DNA of 63,371 nt, filler included, from Reclinomonas americana ATCC 50394 (Eukaryota): the NCBI GenBank assembly GCA_048213135.1. It is 5 parts of 5 records of this genome, joined end to end, with 100 filler letters (N's around TTAATTAATTAA, not from the genome) between each part and the next. Parts side by side here need not be neighbours in the genome. Positions count along the whole stretch, not along the records: positions 36,211 to 52,522 come from PS015413.1; 4 more parts are not named here. One strand, 5' to 3'. Below are positions 576 through 45,776 of this stretch, piece by piece. The notes under the pieces were generated by a model. It saw only the letters and a program-made list of their open reading frames with translations. It searched no databases and was not told the origin of the DNA. Each line of letters opens with the position of its first letter. Position 1 is the first letter of the stretch. The translations under genes and the position numbers were made by a program.

Positions 576-3500
576 ATGAGGTGTGTTTTGTTGTGTGTTG
601 CTGTCAGAAGGCGTCTCTCACACTCGCAAACGTTGTTTGTGTTCTTGTCTCAGTCAACAAGAGAGGAGGAAAGCATGGGAGATGGCAAGAGAAGGCGATG
701 TGAAGGCACTGCGCGAGTTGGTGGCGAGTGAGGGCGCACAGACTCTCCTGAAGAGAGAGGAGATGAACTGTCGTTGCTTCTCGGCATATTACTTTGCCGC
801 TGCCTTTGACCATCTCCCTGTGCTGGAGTATTTGTGGGAGGAGAGTGGTGTCGGGCCACAACTCGCACAGTTGCTCGCCGATAGTGGCCGGACGCCACTA
901 ATGCCGGCTTCCTTGAGTGGGTATCTGCAAGTGGTCGAGTGGTTGCTTGCCGATGAGCGACGATGTCCGCCGGAGATGGTGCTGGAGGAGAACAGCTACG
1001 GCGAAACTGCGCTGCATTATGCTGCATCTCAAGGACACGAAGCCATTGTGCTCCTCCTCGCCACTCGCTTCCCCGACCTCATCTACATGGACAGCAACAC
1101 GGGCAAGACAGCAGCTGAGTTGGCTCGTGAAGAAGACCAGCCGCAAGTGGCCGAGTTGCTCGACCGCCTCGCTGCGCAACAACAAGAACAGGCGCGATCT
1201 CCTCCACCTCCGCCACCTGCAGGTTTGGTTGCCATGTTTTCGTTCAGCTGGTGCCCTCGCTTCTCACGCTGTTCCTTGTGTGTGTGTGTGTGTGTATCGC
1301 CCTGCACAACACGCAGTTCCTGCACGCCAGGTGAGGCTGACTCTGTTCGTGAGTGCATTCATCTCCTATCCTGCATTTAATTCTCCTTGTCCCTCTCTGT
1401 CCAGGTGGTCGACGGCGACACCGTAGCGCGTCAGGTTGCTCAACTCCAGCGCGATCTCGCTGCTGCACAGCAGGAGCGTGATCAGCAGCGACGAGAGCAC
1501 GAGGACATGGTGGCCCAGTTGCAGCAAGCCAACGCTCAACTGCAACTTGGCAAGGTCGATGAGGAGCGCAAGAATGCCCAGCTGAAGCAGCAAGTCACTG
1601 AATGGCAACAAGCGCATGCCAGAGAGCAACAGCAAGTGGTCCAACTACAGCAGACTGTCACGCAGTGGCAGCAAGCGCATGCTGAGGGACAGCGAGCGTA
1701 TGCCCAACTGCAAGCCGAGCGAGATCGAATCGCCTCCCAGTTGACTGTGGCTCTGCGCGACAAGGACGATCTCGCTGCTCAGCTGCAAGAAAAGGATCAA
1801 CTCGTCTCCCAGCTTCGACAGGAACTCCTCCTCGCTCAAGGTCTGCATGCCTGTCTTCTCTTTCCTTGATCTCACCGTTTCTCACTCCCTTCCCGCTCAT
1901 TCCACAGTAGACACTGCCGTGCAGCGCTTCGAGTGGCCCGAGATCGTGCAAGCCACCGACTCCTTCTCCCCACGCCTCAAGGTCGGCGAGGGTGGTCAGG
2001 GTGCCGTATTCCTCACTCTGCTTCGCGAGATGCACGTGGCCATCAAGGTGCTCGACCCCGCTGCACCGTGGACGATGGAGTCGTTTGAGAGTGAGGTCTG
2101 TCTCTTCCTCTCTCCTCTTCATTGCCTCTCTTTATCCACATCCTTCTTCCCTTCCTCACAAGGTGGCCACCCTCGGACGCCTGCGCGACCGTCGCATTGT
2201 GCCTCTCGTCGGCTACTCGGTGGGCGACGACGAGGCACGCTGTCTCGTGTACAAGGCGATGCAGTGCGTTTCTCATCTCTCTTCATCTCATCCATCGTCG
2301 CCTCACTGTGAAAAGCACACAGAGTCCCCAACCTGGAGGATCTGTTCCTGCTGCCACGCGCAAGTCAAGCACCTCTCTCCGTCCTGCAGCGTGTGCAGAT
2401 TGGTCTCGGGTTGGCCGAGGCAGTGGCGTTCTTGCACAAGGTTTGTTGCATTAAAATAGTCTTCCTCTTTATCTTTGTTCTCTCTGCTTGAGCTCTCTTT
2501 CTTCTTTCCTCCTCGTCACTCTCTTTTTCTCTCTCGAACCCTCGTGCTCTCTTGTCCACTTCTTATACAAGGGCCGCTGCATGAGAATGATCTCCCTCTC
2601 AGTCATCTTTCCATCTGCTTCTCACTTCTTCTCTCGTGCATCTCCATGTGACTCTTTTGTTGTCCTTGTTGCTGGCAGTCTCCCGTGTTCTTTGCTTCCT
2701 GAGTTGTATTTCACTGGCCACCAACAGACAATGAGCAACAGCCAGCAATCGTTGACGTATCTCGTGCTGTTTGTCACTCTCTCGCACACAACCTGCGCTT
2801 CTCTCTCTCTATCTTTTTTTGCGCAGGCGCTCTCTCGTACTCAATTCTCTTTCCTTCATTCACGCTCTGTCAACATGATCCTCATCAACTGCCTTTCTCT
2901 TGTCTCTCGTTTCTTTCTCTCCTTTCTTTCCTATTCACTCTCCGTGTGTCCTTTGCCCTTTTTTCCACGCACCACACTCCTCAGCACGTATGGTGCTCTT
3001 CCTTGTTGATCCTTCTCTCACTTCCTTTTCCCCCTTCTTTCCACTCACCAGAACGACGTGGTGCACCGTGACATCAAGCCCGCGAACGTGCTTCTCGATC
3101 AACGCTTCGAGGCGTGCCTCGGCGACTTTGGCATTTCGCGGTCGACTGCCAGTGGCAAGGTCAGGTCTTCTTCTTCTTCTTCTTCTCTCACGCCCTGTCT
3201 CTCACGCTCTCCCCTCTCGCAGTCGACCGCCGCCGCCGGCACCCTCGACTACATGGACCCTTTGGCCCTCTACGCGAGACAACCACTGCCCAAGCACGAC
3301 GTTTACAGCATGGGCGCGGTGCTGGTGCAGCTGGTCTCCGCCAAACCCGTGGTGACGGTGGCCGAGTGGTCTCTGGAATGGGACGAGTCGCCAGAGTCGC
3401 TGCGCCCCATGGAGCTGGTGGATGGTGGCGTGGAGTGGACGCCACGCATTGCCGAATCTATGTTCGAGCTCGGCATGCAGTGCATGAGTGTGCGACGAGA

Positions 3501-3579
3501 CAGACCGACGGCGCAGGAGGTGCTGGAGAGGATGCGTGCCATTCGCGAGGCGTGTGGGCAGTTCACGATGGAGTTGTAA
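576..3579 (+). CDS. Ankyrin-repeat / coiled-coil / RLK-Pelle (IRAK-like) kinase, paralog 1 (9 exons, ~631 aa)
   Basis: GT-AG exons 576-580, 654-1222, 1317-1330, 1405-1840, 1908-2095, 2163-2263, 2323-2440, 3052-3159, 3223-3579 sum to 1896 nt in frame. ANK motifs GRTPLM, GETALHYAA, GKTAAELA; poly-Pro linker; Gln-rich coiled coil. Kinase motifs RFEWPEIVQATDSFS, GEGGQG, VAIK, HRDIKPAN, DFG, GTLDYMDP, DVYSMG. Confidence 0.88.
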
Positions 3580-3986: not shown

Positions 3987-6900
3987 ATGAGGTGTGTGTG
4001 TGTGTCTTGTTGTTGTCGTCAGAAGGCGTCTCATCAACTCACTCACAATCTCATTGTTTGTATTTCTGTTTGAACTGGCAGTCTGCAACAGAGGAAGAAA
4101 GCATGGCAGATGGCGAGGGAAGGCGATGTGAAGGCACTGCGCGAGTTGGTGGCGCGTGAGGGCGCACAGACTCTGTTGAAGAAAGAGGAGATGGCATCAG
4201 ATGGCAACTCGGCATTCTTCTGGGCCGCTTGGTCTGGCCATCTCTCTGTGTTGGAGTACTTGTGGGAGGAGAGTGGCGTCGGACCACAACTCGCACAAAT
4301 GGTCACCGACGATGGCTGGACGCCACTGATGACGGCTGCACGCCAAGGTCAAGTGCAAGCTGTAGAGTGGTTGCTTGCCGATGAGCGGCGATGTCCGCCG
4401 GAGATGGTGCGGGCGGTGGACAAGGTCGGTGAGACTGCACTGCATAAGGCTGCTCTGGATGGCTTCGATGCCATTGTGCGACTTCTCGCCACTCGCTTCC
4501 CCGACCTCATTCCCATGGTCAACAAATATGGCAAGACGGCGGCTCAACGGGCAAGCGAGAGAGGCAATCTGCAAGTGGCCGAGTTGCTCGACCGCCTCGC
4601 TGCGCAGCCAGAACCACCATGTCCACAACAACAACAAGAACAACAACAGCAGGCGCGATCTCCCCCACCTGCTCCACCTGCAGGTTTGGTTGCCTGCTTT
4701 TTGTGCACTTGGTGCTCTCTCTTCTCACACTGTTCCCTGTGTGTGCCTGCGTTTATCACCCTCCGCAACACGCAGTGCCAGCACACCAGGTCAGGCTGAC
4801 TCTGTTCGTGAGTCATCCATCTCCTGTCTGGATTTAATTCTCCTTTTCCCTCGTCTGTTCAGGTGGTCGACGACGACACCGTGGCCCGTCAGGTCGTCAA
4901 ACTCCAGCGCGATCTCGCCGCAGCGCAACAAGAGCGCGACCAGCAGCAACGAGAATGGGATCGGCAGCGACGAGAGCACGAGGACATTGTGACCCAGTTG
5001 CAGCAAGCCAACGCACAACTTCAACATGGCATGGTCGATGAGGAACAGAAGAATGCTCTGCTGCAGCAACGAGTTTCTCAGCAGCAGGAGATCAACGCCC
5101 AGCTGCAGCAGCAGGTCACTCAATGGCAGCAAGCCGTCGCGCAGTGGCAACAGGCGCACGCCAGAGAGCAGCAGACAAACGCCCAGCTGCAAGCCGAGCG
5201 AGATCGAATCGCCTCCCAGCTGACTGTGGCGATGCGTGACAAGGACGACCTTGCCGTTCTCGTCTCCCAGCTCCGACAGGAACTCCTCCTTGCTCAAGGT
5301 CTGCATCTGTTCCCTCTGCGTACATTTTTCTCAAACGTAGTTGTCCATGTCTCACTCCGTTCCCTCTCATTCGGCAGTCGACACCGCCGTCCAGCGCTTC
5401 GAGTGGCCCGAGATCGTGCTCGCCACCGACTCCTTCTCCCCACGCCTCAAGGTCGGCGAGGGTGGTCAGGGTGCCGTCTTCATCACTCTGCTTCGCGAAA
5501 TGCACGTGGCCATCAAGGTGCTCGACCCCGCTGCTCCATGGACGATGGAGTCGTTTGAGAGTGAGGTCTGTGTTTCTCTCCTGTTTCCTCTCTCTCTCTC
5601 TTCTCATCCTTCTTCAGGTCGCCACCCTCGGACGGCTGCGCGATCGACGCATTGTGCCTCTTGTCGGCTACTCGGTGGGCGACGACAAGGCGCGCTGTCT
5701 CGTGTACAAGGCCCTGCAGTGCGTGTTCGTCTCTTTCCTCTCTTTCCTCAATCATTGCCTTACTGTGAAAGCACACAGAGTTCCCAACCTTGAGGATCTG
5801 TTGCTACTTCCGCGTGCCAGCCAGGCACCACTCTGTGTCGTGCAGCGTGTGCAGATTGGTCTCGGACTGGCCGAGGCTGTGGTGTTCTTGCACAAGGTCG
5901 CTGCTCTCTGTCTTTCTTTCTCTCTGAATCAGCTCTCTCTTCTCTTTTCACTCCTTGTGCCGCTCTTGGCTCTCTCAAACCCTCATGTTCTCTGGTCCAC
6001 TTCCCTCACGAGGTCTGCTGCGTGAGAATGATGTCCCTCTCAGTCCTCTTTGCACTCTACTTTAGCTCTCTCTTCTCTTTTCTCATTGCATTTCTTTTGT
6101 GTTGTCTTGTCTCTCCAACCCTCATGTTCTCTGCTCCACTTCTTTCACATGGTCTGCTGCGTGAAATTTATTATCCTTCTCAGTCATCCTTGTTCTCTAG
6201 TTTAGCTTTCGCTTCTCGTTTTCCTTCTCTTTCTTTCGTGCCGTCTTGTCACTCGCAACCCCTCATGCACTGTGCTTCACGTCTTTCACGAGGTCCGCAG
6301 TGTGAGAATGATCTCTACTTCTCTCGTGCCTCTCTTTGTGGCTCCTTCGTTGTCCTTGTCGCTTGCAGACTCTTGTATTCTCTGCTGCCCCACTTGCTTC
6401 TACTGGCCGCCAACGAACAAAAAGTAGCAACTAGAGATTGTTAACATGTCTCGTGTTTTCGTCACTATCCCGCGGGCTCCTCCCTCAGTTTCTTTCTCTC
6501 TCGCACACTCTGTCTCTTTCTCTCTCCCTTCCTAGGCACTATCTCACGCCCTTTTCTCTTGCCTTATTTCACTCTCTCTCAACGTGATCCTCATCAAGTG
6601 TCTTGCTTCTCTTTCGTTCCCCCCTCCCCCACGCACCACTCTTGTCTCAGGTGTCTAGCTCTTCGTTAGCCTGCTCTCACTTCTTGCCCCCCTTCTTTCC
6701 ACTCTCCAGAACGACGTGGTGCACCGCGACATCAAGCCCGCCAACGTGCTGCTCGATCACCGCCTCGAGCCATGTCTCGGTGACTTTGGCGTCGCGCGGT
6801 CGACGATCGGAGACAAGGTCTGCTGATTCCCATCCGCCACTGCATCCGTTTCCACCCTCTCACGCTTTCTCCTTGCCTCTCAGACAACCAATGTCGCCGG

Positions 6901-7240
6901 CTCGCGCGGCTACATGGATCCACTCGCACTCCTTGTGCGCCGCCCTCTGCCCAAGCACGACGTATACAGCATGGGCGTGGTGCTATTGCAGCTGGTCACC
7001 GGCAAGCCGGTAGAGATGGTGGCCGAGTGGTTTGTGGAATGGGACGAGTCGCCCGCCTCAATGCGCCCCATGGAGCTGGTGGATAGGGGAGCAGAGTGGA
7101 CGCCGCGCATTGCCGAACCAATGTTCGAACTGGGCATGCAGTGTGTGAGTGTGCGACGAGACAGACCAACGGCGCAGGAGGTGCTCAACAGGATGCGTGC
7201 CATTCGCGAGGCGTGTGGGCAGTTCACGATGGAGTTGTGA
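3987..7240 (+). CDS. Ankyrin / coiled-coil / RLK-Pelle kinase, paralog 2
   Basis: Exons 3987-3991, 4082-4683, 4776-4789, 4863-5298, 5378-5565, 5618-5718, 5779-5896, 6710-6817, 6884-7240. Same intron positions and phases as paralog 1; VAIK, HRDIKPAN and DFG intact. Confidence 0.88.
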
Positions 7241-7563: not shown

Positions 7564-10500
7564 ATGAGGTGTGTTTTGTTGATCTAGTCACCATTTAGTC
7601 GCACTCTCATTATGTGTTTCTGGTTGAACTGGCAGTCAACAACAGCGACAGAAAGCATGCACAATGGGGGCTACTGGCGATGTGAAGGCACTGCGCGAGC
7701 TGGTGGCGCGCGAGGGTGCACACACTCTGCTGAAGGGAGAGGAAATGAGCGACTATGGGAGCTCGGTGTTTTACTTTGCCGCTGCCAGAGACAATCTCTC
7801 TGTGTTGGAGTATTTGTGGGAGGAGAGTGGTGTGGGGCCACAACTCGCACAAACAGTCAATGACTATGGGTGGACTCCGCTGATGGGGGCTGCCGCCGGT
7901 GGGCAACTGCAAGTGGTGGAATGGTTGTTGGCCGATGAGCGACGATGTCCGCCGGAGATGGCGCGGGCGGTCACCAATGACCGTGATTCTCTCTATCCAC
8001 AGTCCACTGCACTGCATTTAGCTGCCAGAAATGGCCACGATGATGTTGTGCGACTCCTCGCCAATCGCTTTCCCGACCTCATTCCCGTGGTCAACAAGAC
8101 CGAGAAGACGGCGGCTCAGGTGGCACGCGACAAGAACAGGCAACATGTAGCCGAGTTGCTTGATCGCCTTGCTGCGCAGCCAGCACCACCATGCCAACAA
8201 CAACAACAGTCGCGATCTGCCCCGCCTTATCCACCACCTGCAGGTCTAGTTTTGACATCTTCTCTCTTGTTTGTCTAGCTGGCTCTCCCCTCTCAAGCTG
8301 CTTTGTATGTGTGCATATGTGCATATCTCCCTGCGCAACATGCAGAGCCGGCACTTCAGGTGAGAATGTTCATGCCTATCCATCGTCCTTCCATTTCGGC
8401 GTTGTTTTCTTCTCTTGGCACCAATCTCGTCTAATTCGTTGCAGTTTGTTGCTGACGAAGCTACGGCTCGTCAGATCGCTCAGCTCCAGCACGATCTCGC
8501 CGCAGCGCAACAAGAGCATGCTCGGCAGCGGGGAGAGTGGGATCGACAGCGATGTGAGCACGCTGATATCGTCGCCCGGCTGCAGCGTACTGTCATGGAG
8601 CTCGAGCAAAGGATAGAGGAAGAGAGACAACGTGTCTCTCGTGTTCAGAATGAGCTGGATTGTGCTGCAGATCAGCTTGCTCTAACCCTGTGCGCGAGAG
8701 ACTCCACGGCCGCCCAAATAAGTACCTTCCGACAACACGTGCAAGGGAGAGACGCCGTTCAAGGTTTGCGGTTTGTGTCTGGACTGTTCTCTCTCTCTCT
8801 CTCTCTCTCTCTCTGCCAAATTATTGTTTCAAAGTGAGTCGTTTTGCTCGCAGACGATGTCATGTGTAGATTTGTAATGTTATTGATTTCGCTCACTGCT
8901 CGCACCAACGCAGTCGACCTCGCCACTAGGCACGATAAGCCTGCCGTGGAACTCGCCACCGACACGGAAAATGTTGCGCACTTTGCTGATCCTCCGCAGC
9001 TCAGTGCCAGCTTACCTGCTGATCGGTGCAACACTGATGAGGATGCTTCGGAGCTCAATCAAGTCAGACGCAAGTTGGCAACAATCATCGCCGACCGCGA
9101 TGAACTAGAACAGCAGCTGGCTCAATCGCGGCATACCTCTGCCACAGTTGCTGCCGAATGCAGTGACTTGCGTGCAGAACTCGTCATGTCTACCGCTGTG
9201 CGCGACGATTTACAGCAAAGGGTCCGTGAGGTGGAAGGCCAGCTTCGCGCTCTGTTCCACATGGACTTTCTCAGGTCTCTCGTGCGCTGCTTTGCTGTTT
9301 TCTCCTAGCACTGTTCATGGTGTGCTCACTTATTGTTGACAACGTGTGTTCAGTGACCGTCGTCGGATTTTGATGCTGACAGAAGTTGTGCACGAAATAA
9401 TTCCGCTCGCTCTCGGCTCGCTGCTGCAACTGCTTGTCGCCAGTTTCTTTCCTGGCGAATTTCACATTGAGCAACTGTGCCTCCCCGCTCCACCGCCAAG
9501 GTGCGCGATTGCGCGCTGTCTTCACAATGTCAAAGCAGGTTCAATTGTTCATGTGATAATACGTTTTTGATGTGTAGATATTGTCGAATGTTGCTGGATA
9601 AGCGAGGAAACATTCGCATGCGGTCCGCGGAGCTGTATCCTTCCAACTATGAAGCAGTGTGCAAGTTCAAGCGGAGTGGAGAGACGACGAAGATGGATGT
9701 GTCGCTCCTCAGTACTCTACTGTTGCACACAAGCTTTGTTTCAGCCGCCGCCTGCCGTGATGCAGATCTTCTCGAGAGCCGCGTACGCCTCGATCCTGTC
9801 ACCCGCAGAGATCGAATGGCTGTGCCACTGCTCGCTGAACCGGCAAGGGTAAGCATCGTCGATGAGTATTCATGATCGTGCAAGGAACCCACTCGCTCTC
9901 GTCGATGCAGATTCGAGCCGTCGAAAACTTGCGAGATGTGCGCCATCGAGTGTCTCACTTGGCCCGACTTTCCGCACTTGAGGATGCAGAATATGTGAGT
10001 GTCATGCGACTGGTACGCGACTCGCTTCACGCTCTCTTCCCCGAAGGACATGAGAGTATCCAAATGTTGTTCCAAGCATACAAGAGTTACGAGACTTGTA
10101 CCGGAACCGCTTGCGTTTTCTCTCTTCACACTCACTCATCATTGATACAGACGTGAGCCACATCAATGCTACGGCCGAATTGGTCAAGGAAAGAGCTGGC
10201 AGATTTGTGATTCGCGCACCCGTTGTGCGGGTCTCTGATCTGTCGCCTACGAAGCGACTGACGATTGGTGTCTTGATCTCTACGTTGGTTCTTCGGATAT
10301 TCTCCACAGCTCGGTACTTATTGCTATCCCACAGGGCAAGTTGCTATCACAAAAGCTGTTCTCCGTCTCGGCGGTTTGACGCAGACTGTTGCGTACAAGC
10401 AATATCAACTGGCTCATCAGAAAGATTGTGATTTGCAATCGGCGGACTGGGAAATGGTACGCCAGAACTACGAAAGCGAACAATCTCTGCTGATGCAACT

Positions 10501-10875
10501 CGAGTTGCGTGCTGGTGGTGATTACTGCAGTTTAATGCTTACCTCCCTTGCTGATGCACTCGAACACAGTCATCCGAACATTGTGAAACTGATGGCAGTA
10601 TGCAGCGACGATCCGCGTGGTCTCGGTCTCGTTCTTGAATTTGTTGGTCCACAAGACGAAGATGGAGACTCAGTGACGCTTTGCGACTTGGTGAAGGACG
10701 ATCGCGTGACGTCTCAACACCTGCTCAGTCTTCTCGTGCAAGTGGCGTCGGCCGTGGTACACATGCACTCTAGGCGCGTGGTGCATCGAGACCTTAACCC
10801 CCGAAGTTTCGTTCTTCATTATGTCGTGGAGACCGGTGAAGACAAGTTGGCAGCACTTTAGTGCTGCGGTACATA

Positions 10876-10923
<48 letters not shown>

Positions 10924-28788: not shown

Positions 28789-30093
28789 TATGTGTACGTG
28801 AGAGTGAGAGGAGAGGAGGAACATCGTTGCAGTTGCATAGGCGAGGAGCAAAGAGGCGCTCTCTCACTCTCTTCATTTGTCTCTGAGTTTGCTTTGCGGA
28901 GGCCACAGCAAGAGAGAGAGAGAGAGTGAGGAGAGATGCACGCACACTCGCAGACAGAGAGAGAGAGAGAGAGAGATGAATGACGCCTGCAGAGAGCAAA
29001 GAGGCATTGTTTTCCTTCCTTTGACTCAATCTCACTCTGAGCTTGTGTAGAGGTTTGATCAAGAGAGAGAGAGAGAAAGCGTGTGAATGAGAGGAAGAGC
29101 GTGTTTGCTGTTGCAAAGCCGGACAGCAACGGGAGGCTTTCTCACTCTTACTATCGTTCTCTTCTTTTCACTCTCTCAAGTGAGATTGCACAATGGGTGT
29201 GTGTGAGAGAGAGGGAGAGGGAGACACAGGTACACAGAGAGGGAGGCACAGTCCCTCTGTCTGCATNNNNNNNNNNNNNNNNNNNNNNNNNNNNNNNNNN
29301 NNNNNNNNNNNNNNNNNNNNNNNNNNNNNNNNNNNNNNNNNNNNNNNNNNNNNNNNNNNNNNNNNNNNNNNNNNNNNNNNNNNNNNNNNNNNNNNNNNNN
29401 NNNNNNNNNNNNNNNNCTGGAAAGCGTTCTTCAACGGTCTCATGGCTTCGTCTCGCAGTTGCAGCGAGAGACTGAGAATCGCCGTCCTTTTCTCCTTGCA
29501 CTCACCTACATTCCTTTCCGTTCCCTCTCTTTCTCTCTCGCTCAAGTCTCTACTCTCTCGAAACGCACAATTACTGTCTCAATATCTTCCATTCCGTGGA
29601 AGTTGAGTCGCACTTTGCCTCTCTCTGTCTCTCCGTTCCTACGAGTTGCTCATTGGAAGCAACAATACTTCCACGTTCTGCAATTGCAAGTTGTATCTCT
29701 CTCTTTTCTTCTCTCTCTCTCTCTCTCTTTCTTTTCTTTCTATACTTTCTCTTTCTTTACTTATATCTCTGTTTCTTTCTCTGAGTTGCACAACGGAGGT
29801 CACTTGGAGAGAGATAGAGAGAGAGAAAGATAGATAGGAGAGAGAGAGAGGCGAATTGCCACTTCTCTGCATCCTTTTGATTAGCACTCTGGAAGTCGTT
29901 CCTTATGACAGCGGCGAGTCTCCATCCTCTCTCTGCCCTCCTACTTTATCTGTTCGTCAGAGTTGCATATCGGAGGCGACGTCTTGTCTCTGTTCCTTTC
30001 CCCCTCCCCCCGTCCCCTTTCCCTTTACCATCCCCTTTCCCTTTACCATCCCTTCCCCTACTCTTCCCTCACACCCCCCTTCCCCTTTGCACA

Positions 30094-31677
30094 GGCCTGG
30101 AGCGCCTTCCACAAATGGAAGACCGCCGAGGAAAAAGAAATCGAAGACGAGGCCGAGTTCAAGCAATCGCTGTGCGACAAGTTCCGCATGGAGCCCAAGA
30201 TGCTGAACTGCTTGCTCACGCTGGGAGTTGCGCAAAACCCCCCTTCCTCCTTACCTTCTTTCTCTCACCCTTTGCCTTCGACNNNNNNNNNNNNNNNNNN
30301 NNAGATCTACGCCGGCGAGGAGGACGAAAAGCAGGAGCGCCACGGCTTTGGCAAGTCCATCTACCCGAACCAGGACACGTTTGTCGGCGACTTTGTGCAC
30401 GGCAAGCGACACGGACGCGGCACGTACTTTAAGCGCTCGGTGCCGGCCACCAAGCTTGACGCCAAGGTGCTGAAGGCCATTGCCGAGTGGCGCAAGTACT
30501 CGGCGGCGCAGGCGGAGCGCGGGGAGGCGGTGGAGACGGTGGAGGCGTTTGTGGGACGGCTGGCGGACAAGCACTGTGTGATTCGCATTCATCCGACGCG
30601 CACGCAGCAGCTGCTGCGGTTTGGGCATGGGCATCCGTTCTTTGAGGGGGAGTTTGAGGCGGACAAGAAGGCCGGGTTCTGCACTGTGCGATATGATGAT
30701 GGGAGTGTTTATATTGGGGGGCATCATGAGTTGCGTCNNNNNNNNNNNNNNNNNNNNAAGAGAGGGAAAGGAGATATAGGGGATAAAGGGAAAGGGTGGA
30801 GGGGGAAGGGGGATAAAGGGGGAAGGAGATATGGGGGGAGGGGGGAGAGGGGGAAGAGGGAAAGGGGATATGTGATTAGTGATTGAGTGGGGAGGTCAGC
30901 AAGCGAATATGTGTGTGTGTGCGTGTGTGTTTAGCGATTGAGTTAGTGTTGGTGATTGTGGAGTGAGAGGATGAGAGACATGGAGTGCGTGCGGTGGAGA
31001 GCGTTGAATGGGCAAGCGATCATTGCAGTGGAATGAGAGTGATGGGATGAGCAGGGGATTAGGACAGCACTGTGGAAAAGATTGAGAGACTTTCTTGATT
31101 TAGGTTGTTGTGTCTCAATCATTCACTGAGTATTTTGTGTGGACTGTGCGGTAGAATTGAAGTGAGATGCTGTCTCTCTGTGTCTCTTGCAGTCCTTTCT
31201 TCGTTATCTCTGTCACTCACTAGTGTTCTTTGTTTGTCATTGAATCGAAATGAGAAGATACGTTCTCTTTCTCTCTTCTCTCACTCAATGCAGCTGCCTG
31301 CTGTTGAGTGTCTGATCGAGTGAAGCAGACTCTCTCTGTGTCTTTCTCTCATTCTCACTAATTTCTCTCTCTCGCTTTCTTTGTTTTCTCTCTCACTCAA
31401 TGAGAGTTCTTTGTTTGTAACTGAATCGAAATGAGAAGTTACATTCTCTCATTCTCTCTCGTTCTCTCTCTCTCTCTCCTTGCGCGTTTGTTTCTCTGTC
31501 TTCTTCAATCTCTCTTCTCTCACTTTCTGCAGCTGCCTGCTGTTGTGTATCGATCCTAGCAAGGCAGGTAATCTCTCTATGTGCGTCTCTTTCCATCTTC
31601 TCTTCCCTCTGTCTCTCTCAATCCTTTCTTTGTTTCTCCTCTATTTCTATTATCTTTCTTTGTTGTGTGTGTGTGCG

Positions 31678-38083: not shown

Positions 38084-41000
38084 TCATCGTCCACCCTCGT
38101 CGATCACTTCTTCACGGCCGACGCCACCCACAGCACCAAGCGCGTTGGCGAAATCGGGTAAGACGGTGCCGAGAATACGATCCACAAGCCCACGAGCGTT
38201 TCGACGCATCAGAAAGATCCTCTTGCCGGACACACGGGCGGTGCACGCAGAACCGAACGCCATGCAGCGAAGATACGTCACACGTTCCGCTGAGGGGTTC
38301 ACGAGGTCCGCCTGCTCATCAAGAGGCACTTCTTCTCCAGTCGACAGTGACCACACCCGAACTTCTCCGTGATCACCGCGACTCACGATGTACTGGCCAT
38401 CGGGAGTGACGGCGACAGACCATACCCAAGCAGAGTGTCCCTCCAGTCGAAGCAGTTCCTCTCCACTTGCCAGCGACCACACTCGTATCGTACCGTCCAG
38501 ACTCCCACTTACGACGTGCTGACCATCGGGAGTGACGGCGACAGACTCCACACTACGAGTGTGCCCCTCAAGTCGGCGCACCTCCTCGCCGCTAGCCAGT
38601 GACCACACTCGCACTGTGTAGTCACCACCTCCGCTCACAATGAACTGACCATCAGGAGTGACGACGACACTGTTCACCCAGCCAGTGAGTCCCTCCAGTC
38701 GGCGCACCTCTTCTCCACTCGCCAATGACCACACTCGCACCGTCCTGTCAGCACCTCCGCTCACAATGTACTTGCCATCAGGAGTGACGGCGACACATGT
38801 CACCCCACTCGTGTCTCCTTCCAATCGCCGAACTTCTTCTCCACTCGCCAATGACCAAACGCGCACTGTCATGTCACGGCCTCCGCTGACAATGTGCTGA
38901 CCATCGGGAGTGACGGCGACACACGTTACCTCACCATTGTGCCCCTCAAATCGACGCAATTCAACTCCACTCATCAAAGACCACACCCGAATAAACCCGT
39001 TTCGACTCCCACTCACAGCGTGTTGACCACCAGGAGAAACAGTAAACGCAGAGGACTGTCCTGCCGCCTTCCACAATTCCTCGCCTGTCGACACAGACCA
39101 CATCCTCACCGTGCTATCATAACCGGCACTCAAAACATGCTGACAATCGTGGGTGAGCACGACTGAACGCACCAATTCCGTGTGTCCACCCAACCGTCGT
39201 ACCTCTTCATCACCTATCACAGGCCACATTCGTACTGTCATATCTAAACTCCCACTCACGATAAACTGACCATCAGGAGTAATCTTGATTGAATTCAATG
39301 CGCCAGTGTGCCCCTCCAGTCGGCGCACCTCTCCGCCACTCGCCAGTGACCAAATTCGCACAGTTGAGTCCCCACTCCCGCTGACGACGTGCTGCCCATC
39401 CGGAGTGACGCCGACTGCGTATACTGCGGCAGCGTGTCCCTCAAACCGTCGCATTTCTTCTCCACTTGCCACCGACCACACTCGCACAGTCCTATCCCCA
39501 CTGCCACTCACAATATGCTGGCCATCTGGAGTGACGGCGACAGAATTCACCTCTCCGGTGTGTCCTTCCAGTCGGCGCACCTCCTCACCACTTGCCACCG
39601 ACCACACCCGTACAGTCTTATCCTGACTGCCACTCACAATGTGCTGGCCATCGGGTGTCAGTGCCACTGCTGACACTCCCCGCATGTGGCCCTCCAGTCG
39701 CCGTACCTCCTCGCCGCTTGCCACCGACCACACCCGCACAGTCTTGTCATTACTGCCGCTCACGACGTGGAGGCCATCGGGTGTCACTGCCAAGGCTGAC
39801 ACCTCCCTCGTGTGGCCATCCAGTTGGCGCACCTCCGCGCCACTTGCCAGCGACCACACCCGTACAGTCTTGTCATCACTGCCACTCACAATGTGCTGGC
39901 CATCGGGTGTCACTGCCACTGCTCGCACCCAATCCGTATGGCCTTCCAGTCGGTGCACTTCATCTCCGCCCGCCACAGACCACAATCTTACAGTCCCATC
40001 CAAACTACCACTCACAACGTGCTGGCCATCAGGAGTGACGGCGACAGACGTCACCTGGCCAGTGTGACCCACCATCGGCTTCCTCGGCCACTTCACACCC
40101 ATCACATCCGCCCCTGTGAAATCCGCCTCCCTCGCATACGCCAAGCACACATTCACCCCTCGCAAATCCGCCCCCCTCCACACCGTCCTGTGCATCACCG
40201 CATCCCTCAAATCCGCACCTCTCACTCGCACACCCGACAGATCTCGCCCACTGAACGGCACCTGTGCCACACACAACACCGTCGCTGCATTCGCGGCGGC
40301 CGTCACCACCCGCTCCTCATCTACCTCCCGTGACATCTCAATCACCTCCCACAGTCTCTCTTGCAGTCGGGGAGACCGTCGCACCACCTCCGCAATCTGC
40401 TCCACCAACGATAGTCGATCGTTCAGCAACCGCACTGCCAACACATGCTGCTGCACATCTTGCATCGTCAATCTCCTCTCCTCATCCCACGTCTCCCACG
40501 CAAACGCATGTCGTGCCACACAATGCTCCAGCAGCGACAGATGCACAAATCCCCATTGCGTCGTCCCATACCGTCGCACAATCGGACAGCACGCTCGCAC
40601 ATGCTGATTCTTGTGACCAAGGAACTTGTCAAACGGTCCCTCTTCCACTCGTCGCAAGGCGAGTGGCGCACCACCGAACTCGGCAATGTCCTCATCGAAT
40701 GCACGCTCCTCTGACACCGCTCGCACAACATTCCTCTCGTACATCAATCGTGCCAATCCCTCACAGAATGCCAGACACGTTTCCTCACTCGGCACACGCT
40801 CTTCACCAAGACGTGTCTGCCTCTCCTGCTCCCTCTCAGTCCATTGTCGAATGAATCGGTCAAACACATCACACCGAGTTGGTCGCTGCACACCACTCGC
40901 CACCAATTGCGGCAATACACGAGCCACCACTGCCAACAGGAACGGATTCGACACCAATGCATCCAGTCCACGCACACTGTTCAGTGCATCAATGTACTCC

Positions 41001-42777
41001 TCGGCAGTCGACCACCGCTTTTCGCCACCGTCATCATCATCGTCTCCACCCACTTGCACCAGCCGCCCAAAGTACTCCTCAATCTGCTCCTTGTTCAACG
41101 GTGCAATGTGTCGCTCCATCAACTGCTGCATGCACAACTGTCCTCGTGCATCCACCGGTGCAAAGTACCGTCGATACTGCGTCACGCCACCCAGCGCTGT
41201 CAGTGCGTAATCGCCTCGACAGGTGATAATCATCTTCACATCACGACACACGTCCAGCTGGTTCTTGACAAACAGATTCACACCACGATACAACTCGTCG
41301 TACCCGTCAAGCAACAACAGCAGTGGTTCCTCCTTCAATCGCCGCACATCCGACTCGCTGAATCCCAACTCGGGTGACAGTCGCTCCAGTGCCTCCTCCA
41401 ACAGTCGCTCATCGGCATTGCGCAGTGCACCAAGAGGCACACGCACAGGCACTCGTTTGCTCTCTCCCGTCTGCCACTGTCGCCATGCTCTCTCTGCCAA
41501 CACAGACATGGTGGTGGTCTTGCCGGCCCCGCTGTTGCCAAACAACACCAACACACGCTGCGTGGTGTTGGTGTCGGAGAGGAAACTATCCACTTCCGTC
41601 AACAAATCAGTCATCTTGTCTTTCGACGAGACATCACGATCACGTGAACACAGCAGTGGCACATACATCAGCATGTCCTTGTGCATGCTCTCATCGTGCT
41701 GATAGAATGACAGCTCACGCAAAGCCAGTTGATGCAGTCGCTCATCAAATGTGCTGATAACGTGCTGAACGTGACGTGCCTCGCAGACACGAGCGGAGAA
41801 TCGAGCACGCTCGTCAACCGTCAACTGCAGTCGAGAGAGGATGGAGAGGAAAATCCCACTGTCACTAAGATGCGTACGCACACTGTCGTCCGTCAACGGC
41901 AACTCATCATGCCTCAGTTTGTTCCTGACACTGTGCAGCTCTTCCACTGCCTTCCGTTCGTCAACATCGTCAATCAGCAGTACCTTGCAACCGTCATCTT
42001 GAATGAAGCCGCCATACAACATGATGGAGGAGAGAGCCGTCGTATCGAGACCGTCACACGGCGGGTCGGATGAGGGATCGGCGTCGAATGCAACACGCCA
42101 GGCCAACACCACTGGCTGCTTCTCCTCAAACAACTTGACACGAGAGGGGTGGAGCGGAGCATGTCGATCACGCCATCGCTTCAATGCCGCTGCACTCATG
42201 CCAGCAGGTGTGCAACTCGACACCCATGCTCGCACGTCAAAGTCGGAATGATCACGACTGAACTGGGCCAGTGTGCGTCGACACCGCAGACGCACGGCCT
42301 CCTCGACAACCTCGAAGGCCATGCTGATGCGCTGTGAGTTGACCATGCTGTGCACCCAGGGCCGTCAGCATCACAGAATGAGTAAGCAGGGGAGAAGGAT
42401 GACAAGCAAAACAAACCGAGTGACTCGCTCCGAGTTGCTGCTGGGAGATATGAGAGTGAGCTGCATGGTGTACACAGGGGATGCCACATCCAGACATGCA
42501 CACCTTCTTCTCCCGCTCCCTCCACTCGACTGCAGCGCCACACCAAGTGTCAGACGGACAACGAGATGCGTGGATGAGTTGATGCCGAGTGTCTTCAACT
42601 TCAACACACTCGCATCCTCCAAGTCGAATGCCATCGGCTTCTCCACCCCCACAACCTCCATCCCCCCATCTCCACACTTCTCTCGCAGCAAGCGAGTGGC
42701 CTCGCGCAGCAAATCCGCAAGAGTGGACATGGCCGACATGCCCTCCACCACCACCGACAGTGATGAATCATGCGCCG
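38084..42777 (-). CDS. NLR-like STAND protein: (ubiquitin-like?) - HEPN - NACHT - pentapeptide repeats - 14 x WD40; 5' end in gap
   Basis: Exons 42777-42504, 42440-42417 (24 nt) and 42347-38084 join in phase 2. LDTTALSSIM..VEELHSVRNKLRH (41926-41909). Walker A GNSGAGKT (41539-41516); Walker B LLLLLDGYDE; IITCR; NPFLL; FVHLSLLE. AAANAATVL..DLSGVRVRGADLRDA pentapeptides. 14 GH..W repeats. Confidence 0.9.
38330..40069 (-). repeat. Array of 14 WD40 coding repeats (~126 bp unit)
   Basis: Consensus GHTxxVxxVAVTPDGQHIVSGSxDxTVRVWSLASGEEVRRLE. Confidence 0.95.
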
Positions 42778-42797
42778 NNNNNNNNNNNNNNNNNNNN

Positions 42798-45776
42798 TGC
42801 ATCATCTGCGCCAGTTGCTCCTGCTGCTCCTCCGGCTCCTGTGGCTCCACCTGTGCATGCAGCACCAGTAACTCCTCCTGTGGCTCCAGCGCCTGCTGCT
42901 CCTCAGGCTCCTGCTGCTCCTGCTGCTCCTCAGGCACCTGCTGCTCCTCAAGCTCCTGTGGCTTCTGTGGCTCATGCTGCTCCACCAACGGCGGTGGCTC
43001 CTCCTGTGCCAGTGGCTCCCGTTGTCCCTGCCGTGGCTCCACCGACTTCCGTGGTTCATGCTGCCCCGCCTGCGCCAGTGGCTCCCGCTGTGCATGCGCC
43101 TCCTCCAGCGGCAACAATTCCTTCTGCAGTGGCTCCACCTGTAGCTGTGGCTCCTCCTGCTCATGCAGCTCCTCCAGCTTCTGAGGTCCCTGTTGCTCCT
43201 TCAGCGTCAGTTGCACCGCCGGCACCAGTGGCGCCTGTAGCTCCTGCTGCTGTGCCTCATGTCGCCCCTCAAGCGCCTGTGGCACCTCCAGCGCCTGTGG
43301 CACCCCCTGTAGCACCTCATGCGGCACCGGTTGTGCCTGCGATGTCAGTCGATCACGCTCCACCTCGCGCGGCGCCGCCACCACCACCCTCCGCACCTCC
43401 GCCACCCCCGCCTGCTCATGCGGCGGCCATGCGCTCCATCATCCTCCCGCCCTCCTCCGCCACCGTGCACACGCGGTCGTCGGCCATTCCCGTCATGTCA
43501 CCGGAATCGCCGTCGTCGGATGTGTTTTCGGCGCTGTCGCCCGAGTCGATGCAGGGCGTGCCGTCATCGTACCACTTGCATCAGCGACAGCCGAGCGGCG
43601 ATGACTCCGTATCTGCCGACTATGAGGTTTCCGACTTGTCGACTGAACGTTGCGCATTCGGAGCACAGTCGTCGAGAGATCATCTTGTTTCTCACTCACT
43701 TTCTCTCTCTGGCAGGTGACACGGCGCGATCTGGCGATCAAGGAACGGCGCGATCTGTTGCCACACCACCACCTCCGCCCCCGCCTCCCGCCGCTGCGGC
43801 TCCTGCGGCCCCGCATGCCGCCACTGCATTGCTGTCGGGTGCTCACGGCACTCCGCACTCGGCCTCGTCGATGCATGAATCTGGTTCTCCTGCGTCGCAC
43901 GACTCCTCGGCTCGGCGTTTGGGAGTTGCGCAGCCTTTGTTCTATTGTTATGCGTCGTGTGACATCTCTTGTTGACTCGAGGCTGTGATACAGTCGGAGG
44001 GCGCATATTCACCGCTGCCCTCTGGTCACACGCTGTTCACTCCTGATCCTACTCCACGCGACGGAGATGACGTGCCCCCGTTGCCTCCACGACCAGCATT
44101 TGTTCCAGTGTTGCCGTTGACCTCTGTCAACGAAGCCGCGGCGGAGAAGAAGCAGAAGAAGGAAGGTTTGTATTCTGAAGTGGAATCCTGTTTATTGGGT
44201 AATTGCCTCTTTCTTTCCCTCTCGCTCTCCCCCTNNNNNNNNNNNNNNNNNNNNNNNNNNNNNNNNNNNNNNNNNNNNNNNNNNNNNNNNNNNNNNNNNN
44301 NNNNNNNNNNNNNNNNNNNNNNNNNNNNNNNNNNNNNNNNNNNNNNNNNNNNNNNNNNNNNNNNNNNNNNNNNNNNNNNNNNNNNNNNNNNNNNNNNNNN
44401 NNNNNNNNNNNNNNNNNNNNNNNNNNNNCCTTTCTCACTCTCCCCCTCTTGCTCTCCCCTCTCTCGCTCTCCCCCTTTTGCTCTCCCCTGTTCGCTCTCC
44501 CCCTCTCGCTAATTTCTCCTTCTTGTCGCAGCCCTTGCCGTGGAGGCTGCCAACACCGTTGCGCCCCCGGCAGCAGCACCAGCCCCAGCCCCAGCCGCAT
44601 CGCACACCGCAGGCGAGCCGAAGCGCGGTCCAGAAGTGTATCTCCGCACTGGCCAGCCTCCATCACCGCCGCAGCAGCCGTCCACGCTGAATATTGCGCC
44701 GCCACCGATCATGACGTCCGAGGTGCTCGTACCGTCGCCAACGACACCAAAGGCGGTTCAGGCGCAGGCGGCGGTAAGTGGAGGAGAGATAGAGCGTGAC
44801 TAAGGAAGAAGGAGAAGGGGTAGAGAGGGGAGAAGGCAGCAGTGACAGCTGCGAGAAAAAGGACGAGAAGACGTGTGTGTGCGTGTGTGGTTAAATTCAA
44901 AACAATGCGTGCAGCGCAGAACTTCATAGAACGAGGATGAGGCGAGAAAAGCGGTATCGAGTGAGAGAAAGACGTGATCAATTGAGCAAGGGTGACGTCT
45001 GCTTGCAGTCTCCTGAAGTGCCCTTTTGAGCAGACTCCATCGCCGCAGCCGACGACCCAGATCGCCTATTCATTGCTATCACCAGCTTCACGTGCAGCGG
45101 GTGAGATGATGCACGTTGTCGCTCCGCTTCTGTTTCTGTTGCTCATTCCTTCTCGTGCCAGTCTTGCGTGCCTCAGATATCACGGACCACCACACGATTT
45201 CGCTGCTCAAGCAGGAGCTGGAGTTGGCGCAGCGCGAGCGCGACCAGTTGCTGCTGCGGCTGCGAACCAACGAGGAGCGGCAGCGAACGAATGTTCCGCT
45301 TGAGGTGCAGAAGCAGGTGAGTTGGTGAAAAGGGAAGTGTTTATGGATGTAAAAAAGTGCTCATCTTCTTCCTTGTTGTAGGTCAAGGCCAACACTGCCA
45401 GTGTGGTGGAGCTCAAGGGATGGACGTGCACACCGCAGGCGATGGAAGAGTTTTCAAGATTGGCACAAGGTGCGCTGCTTGTCGCCCTTGTGTCTTCAAC
45501 TTCCCATTGACCATTGTTTCGCAGAGTACGGGCGCGAGACCCCCTTTGCCGACTCGGTGCAGAGTGGAGAGATGTTTGGGCAGCAGCAGCAAATGGCGGT
45601 GCCGGCGGAGTCGCAGGATGATGATGGTGGCGATGGCGATGAGGTGAGTGGGAGGGAAAGGGTGAGAGAAGGAGAAGGGCGAGAGAAGGACGTGGGCAAA
45701 GGGTGGGATTAGGAACTGCATGTTTTGCATGGGTAATAGGTGGGAGAGAGTGACCAGGAATGGGCGAGAGAGAAAA

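What the first reader, a model, noticed from the sequence alone, without database searches (positions are those of the whole stretch)
41700..42347. NLR with an N-terminal HEPN ribonuclease-like effector
Seen: ahead of the NACHT domain lies LDTTALSSIM..KAVEELHSVRNKLRH..LTDD, with an intact R-N-x3-H at 41926-41909. Known: this is the HEPN RNase signature of Swt1/DZIP3-like domains, and NLR/STAND proteins activate N-terminal effectors by oligomerising. Inference: a WD40-sensing NLR that degrades RNA. It is the second HEPN of this type in the window, on a different sensor chassis, suggesting HEPN is a recurrent immune effector in this organism.
Basis: partly seen in the sequence, partly recalled or inferred. 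Interest (0 to 1): 0.85.

Follow-up and report, generated by a model that had tools for sequence, protein, structure and literature searches.

The report
NACHT-WD40 protein with HEPN-like head
A single-exon eukaryotic gene encodes an NLR-type switch protein whose N-terminal end probably carries a very divergent HEPN RNase domain, a design already well documented in oysters, corals and bacteria.

Summary
ORF 38084-42346 (-) encodes a 1420-aa protein with an N-terminal ~180-aa helical domain, a NACHT NTPase with Walker A and B, pentapeptide repeats and 14 WD40 repeats. R-N-K-L-R-H lies exactly at 41926-41909.

The motif alone is not beyond chance, but its context is. HEPN_Swt1 is the only Pfam family hitting the N-terminus (E 0.005-0.05, 14-17.5 bits, below the 27.5 cut-off). 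A profile I built from 33 cyanobacterial Swt1-like HEPN domains matches residues 130-158 (p 2e-6). With R, N and H held fixed, 0 of 2000 shuffles reach the real score.

The similarity covers only about 30 residues (helix 3, loop, helix 4). No homologue of the domain was found in any database. The fold could not be verified: AF2 models were poor and fold searches inconclusive.

The chassis is 28-32% identical to Mortierellomycotina proteins that carry ARM-repeat heads instead.

HEPN-NACHT proteins have been described since 2013 and are abundant in bivalves and cnidarians. I file this as a probable new, divergent member of a known kind. RNase activity is inferred, not shown.

The parts
38084..42346 (-). 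Whole coding sequence, apparently one exon. ATG at 42346-42344, stop at 38086-38084. It is 1420 aa from the Met (1423 aa in the tool's listing, which starts at a GTG at 42355).
   Evidence: GC3 is uniform along the ORF: 0.635, 0.629 and 0.563.
41813..42346 (-). N-terminal all-helical domain (Met-based residues 1-178): the candidate divergent HEPN domain in the effector position.
   Evidence: Secondary structure from AF2 is all-alpha with one possible hairpin. BLASTP matches to chassis homologues start at query residues 178-268 of P0001, so this part is not shared with them.
41861..41962 (-). The stretch that matches the HEPN_Swt1 profile (P0001 residues 132-165 against profile positions 74-106 of 115). 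It corresponds to the end of helix 3, the loop and the start of helix 4: ERKAVEELHSVRNKLRHDELPLTDDSVRT.
   Evidence: Pfam, 14.2-17.5 bits; custom HMM, 130-158 against 75-103; hhalign, 30 columns, 40% identity, E 6.4e-4, probability 27.8%.
41909..41926 (-). R-N-K-L-R-H, an Rx4H motif with the polar N after R (R144 and H149 in P0001 numbering).
   Evidence: It lies at the end of predicted helix 128/130-145 and is followed by a loop.
41570..41812 (-). Helical linker ahead of the NACHT domain (P0001 residues 182-262).
   Evidence: BLASTP matches to the longest-reaching fungal homologues begin at query residues 178-200 (P0031, P0027, P0034, P0038).
41264..41557 (-). NACHT NTPase core (Pfam residues 267-364). 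Walker A GNSGAGKTT at 41513-41539, Walker B LLLLLDGYDE at 41294-41323, MIITCR at 41216-41233.
   Evidence: NACHT E 9.7e-9, 35.7 bits against a cut-off of 26.7.
40088..40249 (-). Pentapeptide repeats between the NACHT helical domains and the WD40 array.
   Evidence: PF00805, E 8.3e-7, 28.9 bits against a cut-off of 20.2.
38330..40069 (-). Fourteen WD40 repeats of 42 aa, enough for two 7-bladed propellers (that count is inference). Mean pairwise identity is 60%, and variability is concentrated at repeat positions 4-8, 24 and 26.
   Evidence: PF00400, 14 stretches, E 9e-151; 126-bp DNA period.
9866..10153 (+). It is a weak match and is not part of the NLR.
   Evidence: HEPN_Swt1 E 0.13, 13 bits; 9.8 bits, p 5e-5; 0 of 2000 motif-fixed shuffles reach it; rank 2 of 921 ORFs.

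Best explanation
The gene encodes a STAND/NLR-type molecular switch. The parts, in order:
- A C-terminal array of 14 WD40 repeats, preceded by pentapeptide repeats, is the ligand-sensing part.
- A NACHT NTPase with intact Walker A and B is the nucleotide-dependent oligomerisation switch.
- The N-terminal ~180 residues sit in the effector position. They are most likely a very divergent HEPN domain of the Swt1/Abi2 branch with an intact R-N-x3-H catalytic motif.

Proposed mechanism, which is inferred and not shown: ligand binding releases autoinhibition, the NACHT domains oligomerise, and the HEPN heads are brought together so that pairs of Rx4H motifs form a metal-independent endoribonuclease site, as in other HEPN RNases. 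RNA of the cell or of an invader is then cut, giving growth arrest, cell death or restriction.

What is shown: the architecture, the intact NTPase motifs, the motif and its significant local likeness to Swt1-type HEPN. What is inferred: the HEPN fold of the whole domain, catalysis, activation by proximity and an immune role.
For: Architecture:
- Pfam finds NACHT above its cut-off, pentapeptide repeats above theirs, and 14 WD40 stretches.
- Walker A, Walker B and MIITCR are present.

HEPN likeness:
- HEPN_Swt1 is the only Pfam family found in the N-terminal 252 aa. E is 0.015, and 0.0052 for the 105-aa core.
- A profile built here from 33 cyanobacterial PF18731 domains gives p 2e-6 for the 259-aa N-terminus and 2e-7 for residues 125-180.
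- 0 of 2000 shuffles with R, N and H fixed reach the real score.
- The ORF ranks 1 of 921 six-frame ORFs of the window.
- hhalign gives E 6.4e-4.
- Positions nearly invariant in the bacterial family are kept in the MAFFT alignment A2: E136, R141, N142, H146, D154 and R157, Met-based.
- The motif sits at the end of a predicted helix and is followed by a loop. N follows R. The 2013 HEPN survey gives both as rules (PMC3710099, sections 6-7, passages read).
- Language-model features: 13 of 30 nearest Atlas clusters carry HEPN_DZIP3 on a minority of their members, 5 carry DUF4559, and Swt1 clusters score 0.87-0.88.

Effector position:
- The same chassis carries other heads elsewhere: ARM_5 in P0007 and a kinase in P0008.
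- 33 of 41 homologue N-termini form one family unrelated to ours.

Precedent:
- HEPN-NACHT fusions exist in animals and bacteria.
- The matching bacterial HEPN is itself N-terminal to a P-loop ATPase (DUF499) or to RNase III plus dsRBD.

Sensor:
- WD40 variability is concentrated at a few repeat positions.
Against: - The Pfam score (14.2-17.5 bits) is well under the gathering cut-off of 27.5.
- hhalign probability is only 27.8%, or 37.4% with the two window domains as a profile.
- The significant similarity covers about 30 residues. Residues 1-129 give no signal against profile positions 1-74, so the MAFFT pairing of W41, W83 and F87 with family invariants is unsupported.
- W89 and A90 of the family (the WAH of RNxWAH) are L and R here.
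- No HEPN_DZIP3 or other HEPN model hit at E up to 10.
- The Atlas tool itself warns that recognition (1935) is below its 2300 mark, and that only 3 of the ten best family-bearing hits share a family or clan, which it reads as 'probably wrong'.
- The fold is unverified. AF2 alone gives pLDDT 44. AF2 with a hybrid alignment of bacterial HEPNs gives 62.9, that run is circular, and residues 65-123 stay below 50.
- No homologue of the domain was found, so conservation of R and H cannot be checked.
- There are no expression data.
Confidence: 0.55

Rival explanations
1. The N-terminal ~180 residues are an unrelated, lineage-specific helical domain, for example an adaptor or oligomerisation module like the death-fold or HeLo-type heads of other NLRs. 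In this reading the R-N-x3-H with its neighbours is a chance look-alike of the HEPN catalytic helix, and the protein signals through protein-protein contacts or membrane action, not RNA cleavage.
For: - Only about 30 residues match, all scores are below curated thresholds, and residues 1-129 show nothing.
- Fold searches gave only generic helical hairpins.
- The domain is an orphan in 1.84 billion representatives: the single hit, P0002, is a spurious repeat protein.
- The Atlas tool flags its own family call as weak.
Against: - In a hypothesis-free scan of 24,736 Pfam models the only hit is a HEPN family, at E 0.005-0.015.
- The flanks add significant score beyond the fixed motif: 0 of 2000 shuffles reach the real value.
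- The hit aligns to exactly the catalytic segment and keeps E, R, N, H, D and R of the family.
- Atlas neighbours are enriched for two HEPN families.
Confidence: 0.25
2. The domain is a true HEPN fold but is not a nuclease. It would act as an RNA-binding or sensing module, or as a dimerisation surface, as proposed for eukaryotic Swt1 HEPN and for MtlR.
For: - The 2013 survey states that Swt1 proper is probably inactive and that HEPN domains lacking the motif bind rather than cut (PMC3710099, passages read).
- The family's W and A in RNxWAH are replaced here.
- No Ex3[KR] acidic motif could be placed with confidence.
Against: - R, the polar N and H are all present with the canonical 4-residue spacing. 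The survey takes this as the mark of active members (PMC3710099, section 6).
- The bacterial relatives used here also keep the motif.
Confidence: 0.12
3. The gene is not an immune receptor at all. It would be a housekeeping or regulatory NACHT-WD40 protein in the manner of TEP1 or NWD1, or an untranscribed or decaying copy.
For: - No expression evidence could be obtained.
- The organism is unknown and no genome is held.
- The neighbouring genes are not recognisable immune genes.
Against: - A 4.26-kb frame is open, NTPase motifs are intact and codon composition is uniform.
- The repeats are highly similar to one another with localised variability, as in rapidly evolving NLR sensors.
- The chassis takes exchangeable heads.
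Confidence: 0.08

Closest known systems
DZIP3/hRUL138-like HEPN-NACHT proteins of bivalves and cnidarians (PF18738 plus PF05729)
   Same: An N-terminal HEPN with Rx4H and N after R, a central NACHT and C-terminal repeats (LRR, TPR or WD40). The pearl oyster has more than 50 such proteins, and anthozoans have 17-83 per genome (PMC9646362 and PMC8260672, passages read). They are listed in Table 1 of PMC3710099. Atlas neighbours of our domain are cnidarian and mollusc clusters that partly carry PF18738.
   Different: The Pfam DZIP3 model does not hit our domain at E up to 10; the only hit is Swt1-like. Pentapeptide repeats lie between the NACHT and the WD40 array. The chassis is nearest to fungal proteins, not animal ones. 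The organism is unidentified.
Bacterial Swt1/Abi2-branch HEPN proteins of the Ava_2192 type (HEPN_Swt1 plus DUF499 AAA+ ATPase) and HEPN-RNase III-dsRBD proteins of cyanobacteria
   Same: The HEPN is at the N-terminus of a P-loop NTPase protein. The shared segment is ER..V.EL...RN...H....TDD..R. The architecture was checked on L083 and L080. PF18731 matched in 34 of 301 genomes of that phylum sample.
   Different: The NTPase is DUF499/AAA+, not NACHT, and there is no WD40 array. Only about 30 residues are detectably alike. The family's W and A of RNxWAH are not kept.
ARM_5-NACHT-pentapeptide-WD40 proteins of Mortierellomycotina (Linnemannia, Mortierella, Benniella, Haplosporangium)
   Same: The same chassis. 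Identity is 28-32% over query residues from about 180-250 to 760, and they carry the same unusual pentapeptide insert.
   Different: Their 420-700-aa N-termini are ARM-like repeats (P0007: PF23948, E 3e-75). They show no likeness to our head (best E 0.6 among 41) or to the HEPN profile (best E 0.65 among 44).
RNase L and Ire1 (KEN-type HEPN RNases)
   Same: A HEPN RNase whose R and H of Rx4-6H are catalytic (PMC3710099, section 6). Activity is switched on by induced self-association of an upstream sensor and NTP-binding module; that point is recalled from the literature, not from a call.
   Different: The domain order is different (Ank, pseudokinase, KEN). The HEPN is C-terminal, there is no NACHT, and there is no sequence match here.
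Bacterial Avs and bNACHT antiviral STAND proteins
   Same: The logic of sensor repeats, a STAND NTPase and an N-terminal enzymatic effector. HEPN RNases are listed among NACHT-linked effectors (bioRxiv 10.1101/2022.07.19.500537, passages read).
   Different: They are prokaryotic. No hit in PADLOC or NCBIfam for our head. No prokaryotic relative of the NACHT region was found by the locus scan.

Membership tests
HEPN superfamily | Rx4-6H motif, with a polar residue (N, D or H) right after R | tested here: met
   R144-N-K-L-R-H149 at 41926-41909. The rule comes from PMC3710099 section 6.
HEPN superfamily | [quoted passage not shown] | tested here: met
   Predicted helix 130-145 or 128-145, Met-based, ends at H146. 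A loop spans 146-152 and the next helix is 153-162. This is secondary structure from low-confidence models only.
HEPN superfamily | [quoted passage not shown] | tested here: inconclusive
HEPN superfamily | Conserved acidic residue in helix 2 (Ex3[KR]) | tested here: inconclusive
   The family's EREMK aligns with CRRTL in A2, but that part of the alignment has no statistical support.
HEPN_Swt1 (PF18731) | Score at or above Pfam's gathering cut-off of 27.5 bits | tested here: not met
   14.2, 16.0 and 17.5 bits for the 762-, 252- and 105-aa queries. It is significant as a lone hit (E 0.005-0.05) but sub-threshold and partial (profile positions 74-107 of 115).
HEPN_DZIP3 (PF18738) | Match to the family profile | tested here: not met
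   Not listed at E up to 10. Only language-model neighbours point to it.
NACHT STAND NTPase / NLR-like architecture | NACHT domain above the Pfam cut-off, with Walker A and Walker B | tested here: met
   35.7 bits against 26.7. GNSGAGKTT and LLLLLDGYDE are present.
NACHT STAND NTPase / NLR-like architecture | C-terminal superstructure-forming repeats as sensor and a separate N-terminal domain in the effector position | tested here: met
   14 WD40 repeats plus pentapeptide repeats. The N-terminal 178 aa are not shared with chassis homologues, which carry ARM_5 or kinase heads.
NACHT STAND NTPase / NLR-like architecture | Ligand-induced oligomerisation that activates the effector; a role in immunity | not testable with these tools
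   This needs biochemistry or genetics.

The most novel reading that the evidence does not exclude
A bacterial-type (Swt1/Ava_2192-branch) HEPN RNase head was joined, independently of the animal DZIP3-HEPN NLRs, to a NACHT-pentapeptide-WD40 chassis that elsewhere carries ARM or kinase heads. This would have happened in a eukaryote that is not an animal. RNase-armed NLRs would then have arisen convergently in at least three lineages (bacteria, animals and this one). Being an intron-less gene, it would be a convenient first HEPN-NLR for biochemical work.
Probability: 0.3. Interest if true: 0.55.

Novelty: new member of a known kind. Interest (0 to 1): 0.35.

Why it matters
As far as my two literature searches show, HEPN-NACHT proteins are catalogued in large numbers, but the passages I read describe no biochemical test of any of them. 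I did not read those papers in full.

This copy is a single 4.3-kb exon with intact NTPase and Rx4H motifs. It would therefore be easy to clone and to test: WD40-deleted auto-active forms, and R144A/H149A mutants.

If the organism proves to be outside animals, the gene would widen the known range of RNase-armed NLRs and would argue for repeated, independent assembly of this design. If the HEPN call fails, the head is an orphan effector domain on a chassis shared with early-diverging fungi, which is of modest interest in itself.

Tried and rejected
Searches for homologues of the N-terminal domain found none:
- The search for homologous proteins, region 1-260, near lengths: 0 of 3431 candidates scored.
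- The 259-aa piece alone at E up to 10: 0 of 1056 candidates.
- Exhaustive phmmer over 1.84 billion representatives: 1 hit, P0002, a tandem-repeat protein matched in 11 stretches. I judge it spurious.
- Metagenome contigs and viral contigs: none.
- PDB sequences: only an E 1.4 KCTD5 hit.
- PADLOC and NCBIfam: none.
- Earlier notes of this scan: nothing.

Other blanks:
- No whole genome is held for the window, so no census of paralogues was possible.
- Sequencing runs: none was listed, and no RNA holder was listed.
- A prokaryotic locus scan with the NACHT region found none.
- PF18738 was not found in 301 genomes sampled from the phylum of G004, and the controls rang nowhere, so that search is uninformative.
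- Rfam found nothing in the window.

Structure:
- AF2 on the single sequence gave pLDDT 44.
- AF2 with the hybrid alignment A2 gave pLDDT 62.9. That run is circular by construction.
- Foldseek against the PDB gave 0 matches.
- VIA-align wide gave only generic helical hairpins.
- A profile of A1 against PDB sequences found no solved relative.

Other attempts:
- A two-sequence profile of the two window domains against A1 gave hhalign probability 37%.
- I looked for further copies of either HEPN-like segment in the window. tblastn found none; the three other ankyrin-kinase genes lack it.
- A homodimer job could not be queued, so there is no result.

Limits on what I saw:
- The Additional file of PMC3710099 held here is only an index page, so I could not see the published DZIP3 and Swt1 alignments.
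- I did not open the supplementary tables of PMC9646362 and PMC8260672. They may list HEPN-NACHT-WD40 proteins directly comparable with this one.
Full report
WHAT IS THERE

The window is eukaryotic DNA with N gaps, (AG)n microsatellites and split genes. No whole genome is held for it.

On the minus strand a 4.26-kb frame is open from 42355 to 38084. The first ATG is at 42346-42344.

R144-N-K-L-R-H149 maps to 41926-41909, exactly as reported. GC3 is the same in the N-terminal part and in the NACHT part, 0.635 and 0.629. A 4.26-kb open frame with uniform GC3 is most simply read as coding throughout.

ARCHITECTURE

Pfam finds these parts:
- NACHT at residues 267-364, 35.7 bits against a cut-off of 26.7.
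- Pentapeptide repeats at 727-754, 28.9 bits against 20.2.
- Fourteen WD40 stretches, E 9e-151.

Walker A (GNSGAGKTT), Walker B (LLLLLDGYDE) and MIITCR are intact.

The 14 WD40 units are 42 aa long and on average 60% identical to one another. Variability is concentrated at repeat positions 4-8, 24 and 26. From general knowledge of fungal NLR repeats, that pattern is expected of a diversifying binding surface.

An unreported detail is the pentapeptide block between the NACHT helical domains and the propellers.

THE CHASSIS HAS RELATIVES, THE HEAD DOES NOT

A search with residues 1-760 returned 44 proteins at E up to 0.001 among 8000 scored candidates. Nearly all the named ones come from Mortierellomycotina fungi (Linnemannia, Mortierella, Benniella, Haplosporangium).

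BLASTP matches to them are mostly 26-32% identical. They start at query residues 178-268 and mostly run to residue 760. They therefore cover the pre-NACHT linker, the NACHT, the helical domains and the pentapeptide repeats, but not the head.

The homologues' own N-termini group as follows:
- 33 of 41 form one family. In P0007 it is an ARM-like repeat (PF23948, E 3e-75).
- Two metagenomic proteins carry a kinase instead (P0008).
- None resembles our head: the best phmmer E is 0.6 among 41.
- None matches a HEPN profile: the best E is 0.65 among 44.

The chassis therefore takes exchangeable heads. This is the usual sign of an effector or adaptor position.

Residues 1-260 found nothing anywhere:
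- 0 of 3431 and 0 of 1056 word-sharing candidates scored.
- One spurious repeat protein among 1.84 billion representatives.
- Nothing in metagenome or viral contigs.
- Not even a self-hit was found, so the organism's proteins are apparently not in these collections.

IS THE HEAD A HEPN DOMAIN?

Evidence for:

1. In a scan of all 24,736 Pfam models the only family hitting the N-terminal 252 aa is HEPN_Swt1 (E 0.015, 16 bits). The 105-aa core gives E 0.0052 and 17.5 bits, aligned to profile positions 74-107 of 115.

2. I fetched Swt1-like HEPN domains from cyanobacterial genomes. PF18731 matched in 34 of 301 sampled genomes. From 33 of them I built a profile. The tool alignment A1 holds 31, because L090 and L109 were left out: their loci are cut at contig ends. 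The results:
   - The profile matches Met-based residues 130-158 (ERKAVEELHSVRNKLRHDELPLTDDSVRT) to positions 75-103 with 14.3 bits, p 2e-6 for one comparison.
   - Residues 125-180 alone give 17.6 bits, p 2e-7.

3. 0 of 2000 shuffles reached the real 16.2 bits; the maximum was 12.2, and 80 shuffles gave no score at all. The neighbours of the motif therefore carry signal of their own.

4. The next best is 0.68.

5. hhalign against A1 gives E 6.4e-4 with 40% identity over 30 columns.

6. Positions nearly invariant in the bacterial family are kept here: E136, R141, N142, H146, D154 and R157.

7. The motif ends a predicted helix and is followed by a loop, and N follows R. Both are rules stated in the 2013 survey (PMC3710099, sections 6-7; passages read).

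8. Protein-language-model neighbours are cnidarian and mollusc clusters. 13 of 30 carry HEPN_DZIP3 on a minority of members, and 5 carry DUF4559. I recall that DUF4559 is the CXorf38 HEPN family, but no call checked this. Swt1 clusters score 0.87-0.88.

Evidence against, or missing:
- All profile scores are below Pfam's cut-off of 27.5 bits.
- hhalign probability is only 27.8%, or 37.4% with a two-sequence profile.
- Only about 30 residues are detectably alike. Residues 1-129 give nothing, so the attractive MAFFT pairing of W41, W83 and F87 with family invariants has no statistical backing.
- The W and A of the family's RNxWAH are L and R here.
- HEPN_DZIP3 itself does not hit.
- The Atlas tool flags its own result as weak.
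AF2 alone gave pLDDT 44. AF2 with the bacterial domains as alignment gave 62.9, but that run is circular and leaves residues 65-123 below 50.

I put the odds that the head is a true, very divergent HEPN domain at about two in three.

THE SECOND DOMAIN

The segment 9866-10153 (+) carries AVENLRDVRHRVSH.
- It hits HEPN_Swt1 at E 0.13.
- It hits my profile at 9.8 bits, p 5e-5.
- 0 of 2000 motif-fixed shuffles reach it.
- It is not significantly similar to the NLR head by BLASTP.

It lies in a gene with ankyrin repeats, coiled coil and a kinase domain. Three further ankyrin-kinase genes in the window lack it.

'A second HEPN on another chassis' is therefore possible but weak. 'Recurrent in this organism' cannot be tested without the genome.

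MECHANISM

Shown: a sensor-type repeat array, an intact STAND NTPase, a head in the exchangeable position, and an intact Rx4H with HEPN-like surroundings.

Inferred from established knowledge of STAND proteins and HEPN RNases: ligand binding to the propellers releases the NACHT, the protein oligomerises, the heads pair, and the paired Rx4H motifs cut RNA without metal. The R and H of the motif are catalytic in RNase L, PrrC and RloC (PMC3710099, section 6). That self-association activates HEPN RNases and STAND effectors is recalled, not checked in a call.

WHAT IS KNOWN ALREADY

- Table 1 of the 2013 survey lists DZIP3/hRUL138 HEPN fused to NACHT, CARD, DEATH and LRR, with expansions in Nematostella, oyster and Capsaspora. 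It also lists CXorf38 HEPN fused to NACHT, and bacterial N-terminal HEPN with STAND NTPases.
- The pearl oyster genome paper counts more than 50 NACHT proteins with an N-terminal DZIP3-like HEPN, some with TPR or WD40 repeats. 194 of 202 HEPN proteins there keep Rx4-6H, mostly Rx4H with N after R.
- Anthozoans have 17-83 HEPN-NACHT proteins each.
- HEPN RNases are listed among effectors of bacterial NACHT proteins and of other conflict systems.
- The bacterial domains that match ours are themselves N-terminal to a DUF499 ATPase or to RNase III plus dsRBD.

The design is therefore known. What is particular here is the extreme divergence of the head, its best match being to the Swt1 branch rather than to DZIP3, and a chassis shared with early-diverging fungi.

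VERDICT

- Novelty: a probable new member of a known kind.
- Interest is moderate to low (0.35). It could rise if the organism is not an animal and the RNase activity is shown.

Noticed in passing
window 580-3576 (+), 4074-7237 (+), 7628-11812 (+), about 53700-56568 (-): Four paralogous genes with ankyrin repeats, a coiled coil (shared peptide ...LQRDLAAAQQE...REWDRQRREHEDIV...) and a protein kinase domain. Three are head-to-tail about 3.5 kb apart and one is inverted.
   Followed up: partly
window 7628-11812 (+): Only the third ankyrin-kinase gene carries the HEPN-like segment (9866-10153), between the coiled coil and the kinase. Ankyrin repeats, a kinase and a HEPN-like domain are the same parts as RNase L, in a different order. 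An N gap at about 11020-11370 interrupts the kinase.
   Followed up: partly
window 42374-43719, both strands: Just upstream of the NLR start lies a GC-rich (61%) low-complexity tract. It reads as P/A-rich on one strand and E/Q/P-rich on the other, and it holds a short N gap. It is unclear whether it is coding, a 5' exon or a repeat.
   Followed up: no
L080 1471-2631; L083 1360-3342: Cyanobacterial Swt1-like HEPN domains occur in two architectures. One is HEPN plus a DUF499 ATPase (about 1100 aa). The other is HEPN plus RNase III plus dsRBD (about 390-450 aa), that is, two different RNases in one protein.
   Followed up: partly
L033, L047, L060, L068, L078: Among the 78 prokaryotic loci with WD40 arrays most like the query (36-54% identity), five come from records titled Mycoavidus cysteinexigens. 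I recall this as an endosymbiont of Mortierella, the fungal group that holds the nearest relatives of the NACHT chassis. Whether this reflects gene exchange was not examined.
   Followed up: no
window 16704-17720 (+), 29909-30883 (+), 59001-59792 (-), 61741-62703 (+): Other recognisable genes in the window are an arginase-family protein, a MORN-repeat protein, a D-glutamate cyclase-like C-terminal domain and an ion channel. None is an obvious immune gene.
   Followed up: no
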